Part shown: positions 33,895 to 57,878 of the stretch, in pieces
Layout of the letters: each line of letters begins with the position of its first letter
How positions within the stretch are numbered: the stretch's first letter is position 1
From: Octopus vulgaris
Taxonomy: Eukaryota
Reading direction: 5' to 3'
Assembly: GCA_951406725.2 (NCBI GenBank)
Contig: OX597816.1
Span: 130,820,001-130,884,000 of the forward strand
Length of the DNA: 64,000 nt
The notes under the pieces: generated by a model
Told to the model about the DNA's origin: nothing
The model's input: only the letters and a program-made list of their open reading frames with translations
Databases searched by the model: none
Program-made: the position numbers and the translations under genes

Positions 33895-35017
33895 ACGGGC
33901 ATAAATAATGTACATAATTCCTCATCTTTTAAATATAAAGCAGAAGTACAATCTAAAGATAGTACACGGTCACTCGAGCAGCTAGAATTCCCAACCAAAC
34001 TTCCCTTATATCATTCTATTCAGTCTCAAAAACTAAGGTATGCCAAATAATGTTTAATGTATGTATGCATGTAGATATCTCTTATTATAAAAGGCAGATT
34101 TTATCTGCCTCCCTTTGGGAGTTATACAAATCTACAATATAGGATTTCTTCAATTACAATTTACCTGGCATTTTTGAGAATACAATGCATCGCGTCATGC
34201 CAGGTCCAGTTTTTAAGCAAAATTTACAGAAAACTCACATTCTGGTGTGTGTGTCAAATGCTTTTCTTAGTCTGGTTTACACCACACGCAAACGCACACA
34301 CACAGTGGGCAACGAATAAAATGAAACTAATTCACTTACTGTGGTGAGTGATTCTTTCACTCTGCCTCCCACTTCCTCTTACACGCAAATATATAAATAA
34401 AATTGTAAGCTAACGTGCGTGTGTGTGTGTGTGACGGTGCGTGTGTGTGTGTGTGTGTGTGTGTGCGTGTGCGTGAGTGTGTGACAGGAAAGTTTTTTTA
34501 GACGAATATAACACCTATATCCAAGTAGCAGAAAGATAAGACAGTAAGGTGTGATTTGAGGGAGATTTGGCTGCTATTTCTACCATGTCTAGCTGCCATG
34601 TAGGGGTCTCCCTCATAGGCTCATACATACATATATACATAGATAAGACAGTAAGGTGTGATTTGGGGGAAATTTTGCTGCTATTTCTACCAGGTCTAGC
34701 TACCATGTAGAGGTCCCCCTCAATTCTTTTATTCTTCTGCTTTTTCCAGCCATTGCTCTGTGGCCATGCTGGGGCAATGCCTTGAAGAATTGTAGTTTAA
34801 TGAATCAACTCCAGTTTTATTTTTGTAAGCATTGTACTTATTCTATCTGTTTCCTTTGTCAAACCACTAGGTGACAGGGATGTAAACAAACCAACATTCG
34901 TTGTCAAGCAGTGGTGGAGGACAATCACAAGCACAGACACGCACACACACACACATACATGCATACACATATACACACATACATACATACATATATATAT
35001 ATGTGTGTATATATATA

Positions 35018-35276
35018 TTGCAGCGTGGAAGGTGTTTGTAAGCCATTTAAGAAACACACAAAAACCGTTACATTCACTTCAACATTTAAATTTAATTTGC
35101 CAAAATATTTTCGTCGCTTTCAGACCGCGACCTGTTCACTGACAAAAATATCGTGCTAACAGGTCGCGGTCTCAAAGCGACGAAAATATTTTGACAAATT
35201 TAATTTAAATGTTGAAGTGAATCTAACGGTTTTTGTGTGTTTCTTAAATGGCTTATAAACACCTTCAACGCTGCAA
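35018..35276. repeat. 259-bp palindrome (119-bp arms, 21-bp spacer), inverted pseudo-LTR-like
   Basis: ttgcagcgtggaaggtg...gcgacctgtt versus aacaggtcgc...caccttcaacgctgcaa, with few mismatches. Confidence 0.92.
35096..35146 (-). ncRNA. Minimal type-I hammerhead ribozyme candidate (G3-C8 core variant)
   Basis: Minus strand UUUGUCA GUGAACA G GUCGC-loop-GCGAC GAAA AUAU UU UGGCAAA gives a 7-bp stem I, 5-bp stem II and palindromic stem III loop. Confidence 0.55.
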
Positions 35277-35336
35277 CTGTTTTCGTTCCAGCACACGATC
35301 TCAGATCAAGTCACTTGCTATGCAAGTACATCTCTG

Positions 35337-35393
<57 letters not shown>

Positions 35394-36596
35394 ATATGTA
35401 TATTGGTAAAAACAGTAAGATAACAAAAGAAAGAAAGAGACCTCAATATTATGTAAATAATATTTTATATATAAAAGTGAGGTTGTGTGTCTGTCTCCTA
35501 CGATTTAGATTCCTAACTACTCCCACATTTTGCGGTGCAGTTTAACCAAAACCGGGTATCTTATAGTCGTGATTCATATCGAGACCGTCTGGGTATTAGC
35601 GCGTGTCTACGATGAGTCTACGATTTAAAAAAAAAATTACCATCAATTTTTCCCATTTTTAATCCATTTTTGAAATATATAAGGGAAGTAACTCTCTAAA
35701 ATTTATTATTAAATCTCAGAACGTAAAAAGCTACAGTAACACCCCTCCCCTTTGTGGTTAGCCATATTGAGATGGCTATTATACTTTACATCTCTAAAAA
35801 TGCTTATATAATTATTTCCCTTACAAACCCGAGCAACGCCGGGCGATACTGCTAGTGTATTTATAAATCAAATATATATGACGCGAAATATAATGTTATA
35901 TATTGTTAAAAGCATAACATAATATGATACAGTTTATATTACACGTCTAAGAAAAAAAAGGATTCGGGTATAGGATAATGTTGTTCAATTCAAGAAAGCA
36001 CGAGAATGCATTTGTTCATAGGTTTCATGAACAAGAACATTAATTTTACCGTACGAATATATAACATGAGATATTATATATAGGTATATATATGTGGACT
36101 CGATGTAGGAAAATGTTATTGTCGACGCTGCCAAGGATAGGAGGTGCTGGGGGTGCAAATGCACCTTCGAAAATTTTTGTGGGGTGCAAAATCCAAATAT
36201 GCACTCCTATTTACTTTCTTCAGGTTTGCAAAACAGTGCGTAAAAAGTGATTTGTAAAAAGTAGCTTGAAGTTATGCTTCTTCTTAAAGAACAAAATCGA
36301 AAAACAAACAAACAAACAAACAAACAGTTAAATAAATAGCAAGACTTTGTTTGGAAAAAATTTGAACCTGGGCTTGCGCCCACTATGCAAGTTTCGTTCC
36401 CGAGCCAGTGAATATTCAATAAAATCATTTCTGTTCCTTAAAATCTTGACACTTTGTCCGGCAATTATCTATAACAGGTAATAATTCGGTGATGAAACAA
36501 TGGCTTCTCTAATCGTGTCTTCTGCTCTCATTCTACTTCATATATTCATTATATATTCGAAGTCATTAATCTATTTGCTCTATTCCCAACTCACGC

Positions 36597-36676
<80 letters not shown>

Positions 36677-36895
36677 TGCAGCCATCTATCTCACCAACAT
36701 AAGTATGTACACACATGTATGCATATAAACATGTATGCATATATATATATATATATGTACGGCTTGATGGTTGGCTAACTGGATGGATGTCAGAAGATCG
36801 GCATTCGTTTAAGTAAGTAGGAATCTATCAATCAGTCTATGCTGTGTGCACGCATATGGATATACATGTATATATATAAACATATATATACATAT

Positions 36896-36954
<59 letters not shown>

Positions 36955-37166
36955 GTCAAAAATTGTGAAGCATGACTGTCAACACTACTACATGAACCCG
37001 AAGATTGCAGAATTCAATGCATGAAAGTACTAGTTCAATCAGAATGAATATTTAACATTCTACTATTTCATTTTATTTTATTCAATTATAATATATTATC
37101 TTATAATATATCATTATAAGATTGTAAATAAAACGTGAAAATCAGACAAGGTTGGAATTCTTTTTA

Positions 37167-37213
<47 letters not shown>

Positions 37214-37974
37214 ATATCTTATGTTATATTACTCACACACACAGATATCTGTTCACATGTATGCATGTGTGTATTCGTTCACGTACGTATATGTAATACT
37301 AGATTGTATGTGATGTACTATTAGAAGCATATGCAACATAACGTATATCTGCGACCTTTGAGTAAAACTACTTATTTACTTCTTCGCAGATGGTTTTGTA
37401 CTTTACGGCCAACATGGTTGTTTATAAGCTATTAGCGGTCTGAAAACATCATCATCATCAACAGCAACAACAACAACGACAACATTGTCATCATAATCAC
37501 CACTGTCACAGTAACCCCCTCCGACACCCCCACTGCCACTGCCACTGTCATAAGTACAAACCTCTGCACCAATGCTTAACGACAGCAAAGCAACATTAAA
37601 ACTAATTTTCCCAACTTCAAAATACTTCAAACTGAAAACATCGGTAACACAGTAACATTATCATCATCAGAGCGATAAATCATCGTAATCAAAATGTTCT
37701 CTGACCACATCACTATCAGAATCATCATCGTCGTCGTCGTCATTATCATCATCATCATCATTATCATCATCATCATCATCATCAACAACAACAACCATAA
37801 TCCCCACCACGACTACCGCCACCATCACTAGCATTGATGCAGCTACACTTTCAAAATTAAATACTGAAGGCAGGGAGAAGGCTGAAACAGACAGAAAATA
37901 GTCCTGGGTCTGTCGAGATTCTGATTTCAATTCTTGACAAGAACAAGTCGATGTAATTTTTCTTCCTAAAATTA

Positions 37975-38185
37975 AGATGGTCTGTTGACAGAATTGTTAC
38001 CAAGCCGGGCAATATTCTTAGCGGCATTTCGTCCGTCTTTACGTTTTGAGTTCAAATTCCGCCGAAGTTGACTTTACCTTTCTTCCTTTTTGGGTCGATT
38101 AAACAAGTTGAACACTGGGCTCGATGTAATCGACTTACGCCTCCCACAAAATTGCTGGCTTTCTGCCAAAAATTTAAAACCAATA
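37975..38185 (+). mobile_element. SINE family B, diverged
   Basis: tagcggcatttcgtccgtctttacg...gagttcaaattccgccgaag...gatgtaatcgactta. Confidence 0.75.
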
Positions 38186-38509
38186 TTTTTACTACAGAAT
38201 AGAAAAATAAGTACCAGTAATATATATGATTTATCGACCTTATTATCGTGGGTTCATAGAAGACAATATTAATCTATTTATATGCCAATGGAAGTTACAT
38301 TGATCCGGGTTCTGGTAGAAGTATCGAAAAGTAATGTATTTTCAAGCAAATAGTCTGACGTCATATCGCAAGAGGATCTACGTCAAAGTATCGAGGACTT
38401 ACTCTGGAGGCTTATTAAAATTCTTTGGTCCTCCGTGCAGATTGAGAAACTATATAGAGAAGGGTAGTGGATGCCTCATGAGTTGTTCCCCAAGAGTAAA
38501 GACCACATT

Positions 38510-38865
38510 CAGCGACAATGATCCCAGAAGAGATAAATTCATTAGGCTTGGAAGCTCTATCTCAACATCTCTATTCACCAGACCTAATACCCTCAGATTT
38601 TCATTTATTTAGGTCCCCCAGATACTGCCAGCGGAAAAATATTCAGAACACGGATGATGTCGAAACGACATTCCAGACATTTATTATTTTTTCTTCTGAA
38701 AAACCTGATTTTTGCTTTTTGACCGAGGAATCAGAAAAATGGACTCGAGGTAGGAAAATGTTATTGTCGACGCGGCCGATTATGTTTTGAATGAATGAAT
38801 TATACTTATGATGCTTATAATGATTTGACCTCTATGAAATGCGACATCATTTTTCGATACCCTAA
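38510..38865 (+). mobile_element. mariner transposase C-terminal remnant
   Basis: ORF 38518-38790 has LYSPDLIPSDFHLFRS (mariner YSPDLAPSD motif). Confidence 0.75.
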
Positions 38866-39918
38866 ATATTGCAGTATGTGATGGTTAGCAAAAATTCCTT
38901 CTTAGATGCTCTTATGAATGAAATTTGGTTGGCAGTAACTTTGCAAAAGCTTAGTTCGTCTTGCATGTATTTTTGTACCTGCGAAAGGAAGGAAGTCAAA
39001 ATTTATAAGAGCATATCACTCTAAGCTGAACGTCTTTAGCATAATTTCCACTAATATAACATTTATAAGATATAATAATAGACAAATAAATGGAAATATC
39101 CTGGCGCCACCTTGGGTCGGCAAGTGTCTATTTTTTTATTTTTAATATACAGTACATATTGCCACCCAAGAAAACGTGGAAATTTCGAGTAGTGACGTAA
39201 AACGCAGGAGCTTAGTACAAAAGGTACTTACTACACTCTCGACGAGTATTGAGCACTTTTTCTCCTGTTTGTTACATGTACATGCCCCCGGCCACATGCA
39301 TACATACATACGCGAATTCATACGTTGTTGGTATTTTTGTATAAAGTCTTTAAATTTTTCATAAAGTAGAATCTTATCCCCTCCTCAATCAACACTACAC
39401 GTTCAACTTATTGTTAGTAATTTGGATAATTGATGTCAGACACTCCAAAAGAATGAATTCCTCTTCGTGAAGGACTTCCAGTCTCTTATTTGCCTTTAAT
39501 CTGGGCTCATTTTTTTTTCATTCTTTCCTTTTTCGCCGTCTCCGTCGGTTTTTCGCGATCGGAAGTCAACGTTACTACCTATATTCCTTTGTATTGCGTC
39601 TTGCTTATCTCCTAGCCACGTCTTCAGTTTCAAACACCAACCTACAACCTGTTTTATTCGATGAAAACACATTCTGACATAGGTCAGCTAGAGCTTTCCT
39701 CCAACCCAGTTTTTGGAGCCTCACTCTGTTTTTAAAGTGCCAGTATGTCACGTTTTTTTTTTACCTTTTTTCTATAAACGTTTTTTCAGAGTAGGAGGCA
39801 ATGTCTTTTGAAACTCACCTCCTTCATATCTTCTACTTTGGGGCTGTTTCATATCGAGATGTTCTTTGTAGCCTTCTGTCACTGTAACGGATGGGTCACA
39901 ATAGTTGCTGTTGATGTA

Positions 39919-40357
39919 TCTCTTATTATAAAAGGCAGATTTTATCTGCCTCCCTTTGGGAGTTATACAAATCTACAATATAGGATTTCTTCAATTACAA
40001 TTTACCTGGCATTTTTGAGAATACAATGCATCGCGTCATGCCAGGTCCAGTTTTTAAAATTTAAACTCCAATTAAGCAAAATTTACAGAAAACTCACATT
40101 CTGGTGTGTGTGTCAAATGCTTTTCTTAGTCTGGTTTACACCACACGCAAACGCACACACACAGTGGGCAACGAATAAAATGAAACTAATTCACTTACTG
40201 TGGTGAGTGATTCTTTCACTCTGCCTCCCACTTCCTCTTACACGCAAATATATAAATAAAATTGTAAGCTAACGTGCGTGTGTGTGTGTGTGTGTGCGCG
40301 TGTGTGTGTGTGTGTGCGCGTGTGTGTGTGTGTGTGCGCGTGTGTGTGTGTGTGACG

Positions 40358-40393
<36 letters not shown>

Positions 40394-41755
40394 GCGTGAG
40401 TGTGTGACAGGAAAGTTTTTTTAGACGAATATAACACCTATATCCAAGTAGCAGAAAGATAAGACAGTAAGGTGTGATTTGAGGGAGATTTGGCTGCTAT
40501 TTCTACCATGTCTAGCTGCCATGTAGGGGTCTCCCTCATAGGCTCATACATACATATATACATAGATAAGACAGTAAGGTGTGATTTGGGGGAAATTTTG
40601 CTGCTATTTCTACCAGGTCTAGCTACCATGTAGAGGTCCCCCTCAATTCTTTTATTCTTCTGCTTTTTCCAGCCATTGCTCTGTGGCCATGCTGGGGCAA
40701 TGCCTTGAAGAATTGTAGTTTAATGAATCAACTCCAGTTTTATTTTTGTAAGCATTGTACTTATTCTATCTGTTTACTTTGTCAAACCACTAGGTGACAG
40801 GGATGTAAACAAACCAACATTCATTGTCAAGCAGTGGTGGAGGACAATCACAAGCACAGACACACACACACACACACATACATGCATACACATATACACA
40901 CATACATACATACATATATATATATGTGTGTATATATATATTGCAGCGTGGAAGGTGTTTGTAAGCCATTTAAGAAACGCACAAAAACCGTTACATTCAC
41001 TTCAACATTTAAATTTAATTTGCCAAAATATTTTCGTCGCTTTGAGACCGCGACCTGTTCACTGACAAAAATATCGTGCTTACAGGTCGCGGTCTCAAAG
41101 CGACGAAAATATTTTGACAAATTTAATTTAAATGTTGAAGTGAATCTAACGGTTTTTGTGTGTTTCTTAAATGGCTTATAAACACCTTCAACGCTGCAAC
41201 TGTTTTCGTTCCAGCACACGATCTCAGATCAAGTCACTTGCTATGCAAGTACATCTCTGTAACTATATATATATTTATATATATATATATATGTATATTG
41301 GTAAAAACAGTAAGATAACAAAAGAAAGAATGAGACCTCAATATTATGTAAATAGAGGAAATCTTTATATATAAAAGTGAGGTTGTGTGTCTGTCTCCTA
41401 CGATTTAGATTCCTAACTACTCCCACATTTTGCGGTGCAGTTTAACCAAAACCGGGTATCTTATAGTCGTGATTCATATCGAGACCGTCTGGGTATTAGC
41501 GTGCGTCTACGATGAGTCTACGATTTAAAAAAAAATTACCATCAATTTTTCCCATTTTTAATCCATTTTTGAAATATATAAGGGAAGTAACTCTCTAAAA
41601 TTTATTATTAAATCTCAGAACGTAAAAAGCTACAGTAACACCCCTCCCCCTTTGTGGTTAGCCATATTGAGATGGCTATTATACTTTACATCTCTAAAAA
41701 TGCTTATATAATTATTTCCCTTACAAATCCGAGCAACGCCGGGCGATACTGCTAG
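39919..41755 (+). mobile_element. Composite non-autonomous Helitron, copy 2
   Basis: Same A|TC start and CTAG|T end as copy 1. Internal second Helitron-like 5' end tctttatatataaaagtg at about 41362. Contains the palindrome 40941-41199. Confidence 0.85.
41019..41069 (-). ncRNA. Duplicate of the G3-C8 hammerhead candidate
   Basis: Same motif as 35096-35146, differing only in the stem II loop. Confidence 0.55.
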
Positions 41756-56524: not shown

Positions 56525-56580
<56 letters not shown>

Positions 56581-56581
<1 letters not shown>

Positions 56582-57878
56582 TAGCAGAAGTGCCCGGCGT
56601 TGCTCGGGGCTTAATTGCTTTAAAGTACTCTTAATGATTTTACTCAATTATGATTAGTGAGGCAAATATTGATATAAGTTTACGGCCAACCAATCGATTT
56701 GCAACTGGATAGAAAGCCCTGCAAAGAGCATTACAACACTCACAGAAGGGGGTAACAATAGAATGTGAGGTGGCCCTGAAAAGGCTGTGTTATCGTTCTC
56801 ACAATTGTAACAATTTGGTAGGTAGTCCTGGAAGGGTGTGTAAAACGTTCGCAGGTGAATACGATGTCTTCGTTTTCCACCAACGGCAGCGGACGTACTG
56901 TTACAAAACTTCATGCTCTGTGAAAACAGAATAGATGCCCTATGGAGGAAAGAGGGTGGGTTAATCGTGGGTAAGTAAATACAGGTAAGTTTGAAAATAT
57001 ACAACAATAGCATCTACTCACCATATGTCGGAGCGTCGAGGATAAAATCCCCCCAGCTTTGTTCCGAACAGAATTAATAACAGAATTGTAAGCGAACTTC
57101 TGTTGTGATAGGAGCTTTGGCTCATTCTCCGCTGTGTACTGAGCAAGCTCGTCAACATTATAACATGTGTCACGCAGCAAATCCGAAGACAGTGTGCTTG
57201 CGCCTTCTCGGTTTGTTGAAGGTCGGCCATACACCGCCAACGCACTACCGCCCAAATTGAGAACAGTATCTTCGATTTCAAGCAGCCCCCTGTTGTAAAT
57301 GAGATCACTGTACCCGACCTTCATTGATCGATTTAACAACTGAGCCTGACGCAGGAAATCTTTGTAGGTAATCTTTGTAGGTAAGCCATAAAGAGGCGGG
57401 ATCACCCAAGTAGCGCTATAGAATAGCGAAAAGCGATCTTGTTCTTTTAGGGGATTTTAACAAAACGCCCTCCGCCATAGTGGCGCCCTATTGTGAATCG
57501 TCCTCGAAAAGTCCACGCCTGAAGTAGGCTTCCCGGAAAGTGTCACATAATTCACCGTCAACAGTTCTTATTTCTTGAAAGTTCTGTGCGCCGAAAACGT
57601 TATGGAGGAGAAGGCGCAGGTGAAACCACACATGCTGGTTGGGAGGTACAGTGCAGACTCTTCCTAGACAACTGTTAAACTTGACACCGGGATGTCTTTG
57701 AACATCCTGGCCTGACTTCCTACGCGCCTAAGTGTTCTTTGACCACACATAGTAGGACACATCCTGAGGGTATAAAAGTGTTTTAGCAAATGTGCCAAGT
57801 TGGCCACGCCTAAAGAAACCAGTCAAAGTTGTTTCTTTTGGATTGCCCAGTCTTTGGATTGCACCAGTCTGTTCAGTA
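56581..57878 (-). mobile_element. Helitron remnant with Rep/Hel coding fragments and intact 3' terminus
   Basis: Minus strand ends cccgagcaacgccgggcacttctgCTAG. Translations KETTLTGFF..AKTLLY, HLRLLLHNV and LLEIEDTVL..QQKFAYNSVINSV are typical of the Helitron Rep-Pif1 linker. Confidence 0.85.

What the first reader, a model, noticed from the sequence alone, without database searches (positions are those of the whole stretch)
34078..41755. A 1.8-kb composite Helitron present twice, carrying SINE pieces and a hammerhead palindrome as cargo
Seen: 34078-35855 and 39919-41755 are near-identical direct copies with different flanks. Both start at TC after an A and end in hairpin plus CTAG before a T, without a TSD. 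Inside are two family D repeats, a partial family C SINE, the 259-bp palindrome with the G3-C8 hammerhead motif, and a second Helitron-like 5' end (clearest at about 41362). The copies differ by an indel of about 18 bp and in microsatellite lengths. Established: Helitrons insert at A|T and capture flanking DNA by bypassing a terminus. Inference: one Helitron 5' end recruited the 3' end of a downstream Helitron and mobilised everything in between, spreading a ribozyme motif by rolling-circle transposition.
Basis: partly seen in the sequence, partly recalled or inferred. Interest (0 to 1): 0.75.

Follow-up and report, generated by a model that had tools for sequence, protein, structure and literature searches.

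The report
Composite Helitron hauling a Penelope hammerhead
The two copies belong to a young family of over 650 rolling-circle transposons that joins the front end of one transposon to the back end of another, and the self-cutting RNA motif they carry is a leftover of a retrotransposon that is predicted to be unable to fold there and likely just rides along.

Summary
Both copies run from A|TC to CTAG|T with unrelated flanks. They are two of at least 656 copies of one young non-autonomous Helitron family, and copy 2 appears absent in two other DNA runs.

The 5' end comes from a 6.8-kb RepHel Helitron (97%). The last 394 bp is a separate short Helitron with thousands of free copies, inserted at A|T in another repeat. 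The same 5' end is joined to compatible 3' ends through at least six different cargo junctions, so end recruitment is routine here. The donor locus was not found.

The palindrome is a Penelope-type terminal repeat with a 5' inversion. Its hammerhead is broken on one arm and predicted to be buried by about 58 kcal/mol on the other. About 15% of this motif's genomic copies ride the Helitron.

The kind is known (bat HelibatN539, maize multi-terminus Helitrons). Earlier notes of this scan report similar cargo Helitrons and hammerhead palindromes on other DNA of this genome.

The parts
34078..35855 (+). Composite non-autonomous Helitron, copy 1 (A|TC ... CTAG|T)
   Evidence: family of at least 656 copies
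39919..41755 (+). Composite non-autonomous Helitron, copy 2; appears absent (empty A|T site) in runs X2 and X6
39919..40411 (+). Module A: 5' end and part of the 5' untranslated region of a 6.8-kb RepHel Helitron, ending in a GT microsatellite (copy 1: 34078-34488). The right boundary is read by eye from the L459 sequence
   Evidence: unit bases 1-270 are 97.4% and 343-428 are 86% identical to L459; RepHel domains
40457..40645 (+). Two D repeats, 107-bp period (copy 1: 34534-34722); an internal minisatellite that varies in unit number between family members
   Evidence: free diverged copies
40646..40870 (.). Piece of the high-copy dispersed repeat family C, 67-79% like the free copies printed (copy 1: about 34723-34947); SINE status not shown
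   Evidence: 113 diverged hits in the loci held; no tRNA gene
40941..41263 (+). Penelope-type terminal repeat with 5' inversion: 259-bp palindrome plus a one-sided tail, between TA microsatellites (copy 1: 35018-35340)
41019..41069 (-). Minimal type-I hammerhead motif with G3-C8 core, copy 2; predicted to be buried in the long hairpin
35096..35146 (-). Minimal type-I hammerhead motif with G3-C8 core, copy 1; predicted to be buried in the long hairpin
   Evidence: coordinates by offset from copy 2
41285..41361 (+). First 77 bp of another dispersed repeat (E), cut at the A|T site where module B inserted (copy 1: about 35390-35462)
   Evidence: free copies continue with T at this point (L011, L301, L302)
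41362..41755 (+). Module B: short free-standing Helitron that supplies the 3' end (copy 1: about 35463-35855, 5' end damaged)
   Evidence: 4,911 exact 5' matches; 28 of the first 30 are free-standing
35828..35855 (+). Terminal imperfect 16-nt hairpin, 8-nt spacer and CTAG of copy 1 (copy 2: 41728-41755)
   Evidence: same motif ends RepHel-coding elements

Best explanation
The unit is a young non-autonomous Helitron family whose 5' end comes from a RepHel-coding Helitron and whose 3' end is a separate short Helitron; it likely formed when a 5' module that had lost its own terminator copied through neighbouring repeat-rich DNA to that short Helitron's hairpin-CTAG, and the Penelope hammerhead inside is likely passive cargo that is predicted not to fold. 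A RepHel supplied in trans then likely copied the new unit by rolling circle to hundreds of A|T sites, often near or head-to-tail with existing copies. Shown: termini, copy number, origin of both ends, the A|T insertion of the inner element, the Penelope origin of the palindrome. Inferred: the one-step capture at a donor locus, the identity of the helper, the empty site (from contig lengths), and ribozyme inactivity (from folding and variation).
For: 656 exact matches to the internal junction. 109 of 109 distinct right flanks begin with T. 43 of 47 junctions had the 5' end within 2.7 kb; 41 of the 43 follow an A and 2 abut the CTAG of an upstream copy. Median 0.5% divergence from the column majority in 32 copies. 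A tandem array of at least 13 copies; three neighbouring pairs differ at only 2-3 of about 2,180 bases. 5' end 97% identical to the 5' end of the 6.84-kb RepHel element L459. Inner element free-standing in 28 of 30 and inserted at A|T in repeat E, whose remainder is not carried. 46 of 46 usable outer 5' ends reach a like terminator within 1.2-3.4 kb through six unrelated junction classes. 30 of 30 position-sampled copies already carry the palindrome, so no precursor without it was seen. A second type of 5' module is joined to the same cargo in 6 of 46 junctions. Hammerhead fold costs 58-60 kcal/mol inside the palindrome, against 1.3 in a solo free copy. 10 of 55 copies share a change at C11.1 and spread anyway; core changes are 3.1% against 4.0% elsewhere, gaps counted.
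Against: The donor locus was not found: 0 of 109 right flanks continue into repeat E, and this covers only part of the family. No unbroken RepHel of the outer family was seen (36 matches, longest open frame 1,351 aa), so the helper is unproven. The terminal hairpin folds no better than shuffles. Folding is an equilibrium prediction; a transcript that starts inside the loop would escape the hairpin, though even the isolated motif folds poorly (helix probabilities 0.004 in copy 1 and 0.12-0.19 in copy 2).
Confidence: 0.72

Rival explanations
1. Stepwise nesting: the repeats, the Penelope piece and finally the short Helitron inserted one by one into an already longer, mobile derivative of the outer Helitron, and the new internal terminator cut the element short.
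For: Helitrons here cluster: 23 of the first 100 junction sites have another within 10 kb, against 0.5% expected. The Penelope piece sits in a TA microsatellite, its usual target. Maize multi-terminus Helitrons were explained by nesting (PMC3288121, passages), and retroposition into Helitrons is documented in bats (PMC4224331, passages).
Against: No precursor lacking the palindrome among 30 position-sampled copies. The cargo pieces are old and of mixed age (C 67-79%, E up to 95% like free copies), as in ordinary intergenic DNA. Six different junction classes share the 5' end.
Confidence: 0.18
2. Filler capture or recombination: a break inside an outer-family copy was repaired from an ectopic template that held the cargo and the short Helitron, or two copies recombined at shared microsatellites.
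For: The match to the coding element ends in a GT microsatellite. Two types of 5' part are joined to the same cargo, which recombination between subfamilies would also give.
Against: The 3' end is exactly the inner element's CTAG, not the outer family's own variant of the terminator; repair inside a copy would be expected to keep the native 3' end.
Confidence: 0.07
3. The hammerhead or its hairpin is functional cargo that helps the family spread or acts on host transcripts.
For: 50 of 55 copies keep all core bases. The C3G/G8C double change partly keeps cleavage in a Penelope ribozyme (PMC11167929, passages).
Against: Copies are too young for core retention to mean selection. The fold is predicted to be buried. 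A C11.1-changed sub-lineage spread. Sister classes without a hammerhead are as common or more common: 16, 9 and 6 of 46 against 5 of 46. Helitrons move as DNA.
Confidence: 0.06
4. Local segmental duplication or assembly artefact.
For: The two copies are 5.8 kb apart and share a rare 11-bp deletion (4 of 34 copies).
Against: Homology stops at the termini. Copy 2 is closer to a copy on another contig (5 differences) than to copy 1 (13 of 1,361 columns). Full-length copies lie on many contigs. Copy 2 alone appears absent in two other runs.
Confidence: 0.01

Closest known systems
HelibatN539, compound Helitron of vespertilionid bats (Thomas et al. 2014, PMC4224331; passages read)
   Same: [quoted passage not shown]
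   Different: There the parental locus was found and the cargo is host gene DNA. Here the cargo is decayed repeats with a Penelope hammerhead, the donor was not found, and the same 5' end did this at least six times.
Helraiser 3'-end bypass and new 3' ends (Grabundzija et al. 2016, PMC4778049; passages read)
   Same: A|T targets, TC and CTAG ends, head-to-tail junctions, use of a downstream terminator when the hairpin end is missing.
   Different: Shown by experiment there, inferred here. The unit keeps no remnant of the outer element's own 3' end.
Maize Helitrons with multiple termini (PMC3288121; passages read)
   Same: Internal second 5' ends (17.6% of helA there), insertion near or inside other Helitrons, high-copy composite families.
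   Different: Plant elements with gene-fragment cargo; explained mainly by nesting.
Minimal hammerheads in Penelope-like terminal repeats (Cervera and De la Pena 2014, PMC4209133; parts 1-2 of 4 read)
   Same: Type-I minimal motif, unpaired base before helix II, G10.1-C11.1 pair, palindromic helix III region, pairs of motifs on opposite strands, intron end near helix I (seen by eye in free copies).
   Different: Core is G3-C8 (the parts read describe C3-G8 and U3-A8; natural G3-C8 variants are recalled from Lunse et al., not held). Here the motif is carried by a DNA transposon and one arm is broken.

Membership tests
Helitron (canonical, non-autonomous) | 5' TC and 3' CTRR termini | tested here: met
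Helitron (canonical, non-autonomous) | Insertion between A and T without target duplication | tested here: met
   109 of 109 right flanks T; 41 of 43 left flanks A; inferred empty site
Helitron (canonical, non-autonomous) | Short hairpin about 10 nt before the 3' end | tested here: inconclusive
   Imperfect 16-nt hairpin 8 nt before CTAG, conserved and shared with coding elements, but no more stable than shuffles
Helitron (canonical, non-autonomous) | Ends shared with a RepHel-coding element | tested here: met
   5' 270 bp 97.4% to L459, which has Helitron_like_N, PIF1, HUH and Y2 motifs; terminator like that of two coding families
Helitron (canonical, non-autonomous) | Rolling-circle transposition by RepHel | not testable with these tools
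   Indirect only: head-to-tail junctions and a tandem array
Compound (end-recruiting) Helitron | 5' and 3' ends come from different, separately mobile elements | tested here: met
Compound (end-recruiting) Helitron | Parental locus with both ends around the captured DNA | tested here: inconclusive
   0 of 109 right flanks in hand continue into repeat E; the rest of the family was not examined
Penelope-like element terminal repeat | Flanks a GIY-YIG endonuclease ORF | tested here: met
   A sister subfamily (84% like the cargo) flanks a GIY-YIG frame above the Pfam cut-off at 1 of 30 free loci (L273/L299), inverted motif upstream and direct motif downstream
Penelope-like element terminal repeat | Linked Penelope reverse transcriptase in a full-length element | tested here: inconclusive
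   Four loci extended about 8 kb upstream gave only 5'-truncated pieces; no genome search for the RT was made
Penelope-like element terminal repeat | Variable 5' truncation with inversion and a fixed 3' end | tested here: met
   30 free loci share one 3' end at a microsatellite or AT-rich site; 13 of 30 show the core again on the other strand next to it
Minimal hammerhead ribozyme | Conserved core with 3-8 pair, helices I and II, G10.1-C11.1 | tested here: met
   Minus-strand arm only; plus-strand arm lacks helix I 5' and the start of the core
Minimal hammerhead ribozyme | Can adopt the hammerhead fold in its own context | tested here: not met
   Predicted cost 51-60 kcal/mol in the palindrome; helix probabilities 0; Rfam no match
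Minimal hammerhead ribozyme | Self-cleavage | not testable with these tools
   Needs an RNA assay
SINE (cargo families C and D) | Pol III (tRNA, 5S or 7SL) head and LINE-like tail | tested here: inconclusive
   No tRNA gene called, no Rfam match at threshold; only fragments are present; C ends in an A-rich tail on the minus strand (by eye)

The most novel reading that the evidence does not exclude
In this genome one Helitron 5' end works as a free 'starter module' that keeps pairing with any downstream compatible terminator, so families arise by end swapping. One product has scattered more than 650 copies of a 118-bp-arm RNA hairpin with a G3-C8 hammerhead; where these are transcribed they would be ready-made double-stranded substrates for RNA editing or silencing, or partners for cleavage in trans with free Penelope transcripts.
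Probability: 0.12. Interest if true: 0.65.

Novelty: new member of a known kind. Interest (0 to 1): 0.36.

Why it matters
It is a clean natural case of how Helitrons make new families: both parents of the ends are identified, the recruited element's insertion site is visible, and the same 5' end has done it at least six times. It also warns ribozyme surveys: about 15% of this hammerhead motif's genomic copies were made by a DNA transposon and are probably not working ribozymes, so copy number and sequence conservation there do not show function. The family is young and apparently polymorphic, so it is a usable marker and a possible live substrate for the intact RepHel family found in the same genome.

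Tried and rejected
Segmental duplication or artefact: rejected. Copy 2 as a direct daughter of copy 1: not supported; same small clade, but copy 2's nearest relative lies on another contig (34 of 55 copies were used, those over 2,100 bases or lacking the main 5' part or the C-start marker were left out). Arm-to-arm correction in the palindrome: rejected, 2 mirrored against 149 single-arm changes in 55 copies. Hyper-editing marks in the founding palindrome: only 4 arm mismatches, one of them A>G. Rfam: no hammerhead match; microRNA hits are microsatellite or hairpin noise below threshold. A search for the loop sequence outside the composite gave 18 hits that look like variant composite copies, 13 of them in one array; the other five were not checked one by one. 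One search used wrong coordinates and gave an unrelated repeat; not used. One of 47 sampled 5' ends (L203) was fetched on the wrong side and dropped. Expression: no RNA holder listed for the unique stretch between the copies. Runs X4 and X8 were uninformative at the copy 2 junction. Copy 1 was not tested against reads. Donor locus: not among 109 flanks. Intact helper of the outer family: none among 36 matches. A by-sequence look-up in earlier findings gave nothing.
Full report
1. Observation. The two copies are at 34078-35855 and 39919-41755. They differ by 11 substitutions in 1,750 aligned bases, an 18-bp deletion in copy 1, microsatellite lengths and a damaged inner 5' end in copy 1. The terminal hairpin is imperfect and no more stable than shuffles. 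The genome is 2.8 Gb in 227 contigs; that it is octopus-type is my recall of repeat motifs plus earlier notes, not a result of a call.

2. It is a family, not a pair. The whole unit finds near full-length copies on many contigs. The internal junction has 656 exact matches, a lower bound since copy 1 itself lacks that exact junction. In 30 position-sampled copies all carry the palindrome and the 3' end, and the median divergence from the column majority is 0.5%. All 109 distinct right flanks in hand begin with T. Of 47 junctions fetched, 43 had the 5' end within 2.7 kb; 41 of these follow an A and 2 abut an upstream CTAG. A tandem array of at least 13 copies lies on C2. 23 of the first 100 sites have a neighbour within 10 kb, against 0.5% by chance. 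Copies 1 and 2 fall in one four-member clade of the 34 copies compared, but copy 2 is nearer to a copy on C10 (5 differences) than to copy 1 (13).

3. Copy 2 appears polymorphic. In run X2 (same species label as the best holder, another sample) and run X6 (another label), a contig of about 2.6 kb aligns from 39300 to 39929 and has at least 950 further bases that do not follow the element. X2's three differences equal the three mismatches between the first 11 bases of the element and of the right flank. I read this as an empty A|T site; the continuing letters were not displayed. X4 and X8 were uninformative. The family's 5' end is present at high depth in all four runs.

4. Where the ends come from. 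The outer 5' end has 3,434 exact matches. Its first 270 bases are 97.4% identical to the 5' end of a 6,841-bp element (L459) that encodes RepHel and ends in a close variant of the same terminator. The unit matches nothing in that element's 3' part. The inner module has 4,911 exact 5' matches; 28 of the first 30 are free-standing short Helitrons of about 300-500 bp. In the unit it sits at an A|T site 77 bp into another repeat, whose free copies continue with T and whose remainder is not carried. So the 3' end of the unit was made by an earlier insertion of the short element.

5. End recruitment is routine in this family. Of 47 outer 5' ends sampled by position on C1, 46 had enough downstream sequence, and all 46 reach a like terminator (up to 5 mismatches allowed) within 1.2-3.4 kb. 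Forty fall into six unrelated junction classes (16, 9, 6, 5, 3, 1); the class in the window is the one with 5. Five of the six without a detected inner 5' end were inspected and are relatives of two of these classes. One class carries a PIF1 fragment 96% identical in DNA to L459. A second type of 5' module is joined to the window's cargo in 6 of 46 junctions. The donor locus was not found (0 of 109 flanks), so one-step capture versus stepwise nesting stays open; the absence of precursors without the palindrome favours capture.

6. The helper. The outer family has 36 coding matches and none has an open frame over 1,351 aa. A sister family has near-identical copies (99.3-99.7%) with open frames up to 1,744 aa and a similar terminator. 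It is a candidate helper in trans; this is inference.

7. The palindrome. It is a Penelope-type terminal repeat with a 5' inversion. Thirty free copies of a sister subfamily share one 3' end, vary at the 5' side, and 13 of them repeat the core on the other strand. At one of them the motif flanks a GIY-YIG frame, inverted upstream and direct downstream. No linked reverse transcriptase was found. The motif fits the minimal hammerhead described for these elements (PMC4209133, parts 1-2 of 4), with a G3-C8 core; the C3G/G8C double change partly keeps activity in another Penelope ribozyme, whose cleavage needed protein and was not needed for insertion in vitro (PMC11167929, passages). The core pattern has 4,427 exact matches; 15 of the first 100 lie beside an exact composite junction.

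8. The hammerhead is probably idle here. The plus-strand arm lacks helix I 5' and the start of the core. The minus-strand arm is complete, but forcing the hammerhead fold costs 58-60 kcal/mol in the whole palindrome and 51 in a transcript that has just passed the motif, against 1.3 in a solo free copy, where both helices form with probability 0.63-1.0. Ten of 55 copies share a change at C11.1, five have a changed or missing core base, and the core is not clearly more conserved than the rest. Against this reading: 50 of 55 keep the core, and no RNA data could be examined.

9. Comparison with what is known. [quoted passage not shown] A search for 'Helitron' with 'hammerhead' gave 6 papers; in the two I searched by passage no Helitron-borne hammerhead is described, and the other four I saw only as listings. 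Searches with 'octopus' gave no description of this family in the listings; one octopus repeat annotation counts Helitrons among recently active families (PMC13282606, passages; supplements not opened). Subscription papers are mostly not held.

10. Verdict. A real, well-supported new member of a known kind. The useful additions are the two identified parents, the repeated end recruitment and the passive amplification of a ribozyme motif by a DNA transposon. Interest 0.36.

Noticed in passing
G000:C2:80896500-80906499 (L459) and G000:C16:18313300-18323299 (L472): 6.8-7.0-kb RepHel Helitrons with the unit's 5' end; frames broken in these copies; RepHel has N-terminal STPR repeats.
   Followed up: yes
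L461-L471, L473-L476: A young RepHel family with several long open frames (1,497-1,744 aa), 99.3-99.7% identical copies and a similar terminator; possibly still active.
   Followed up: partly
L211, L337-L366: A high-copy sister composite (at least 150 matches) that carries a 149-aa PIF1 fragment with an open frame and a 146-bp internal tandem repeat.
   Followed up: partly
G000:C2:206156000-206192000 (L303-L306): Tandem array of at least 13 composite copies, period about 2,182 bp, units almost identical and joined by CTAG, a short TA run and TC.
   Followed up: partly
L181, L199, L206 and relatives: The commonest junction class (16 of 46) carries what looks like a mariner transposase fragment; identified by eye from recalled motifs only.
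   Followed up: no
window 38270-38720: Broken mariner-like transposase remnant between the two copies (YSPDL..SDF motif, recalled).
   Followed up: partly
window 56580-56607, minus strand: Another Helitron-type 3' end, 89% like the unit's terminator.
   Followed up: no
L272, L273, L293: Free Penelope-type repeats are preceded by a branch-point, pyrimidine tract and AG just before helix I, like the intron end described for Penelope.
   Followed up: partly
L294:60-200: Two hammerhead cores 52 bases apart on the same strand, a possible natural dimer.
   Followed up: no
L367-L396: The 107-bp D unit varies from about 2 to 7 copies among family members, a minisatellite growing inside the Helitron.
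   Followed up: partly
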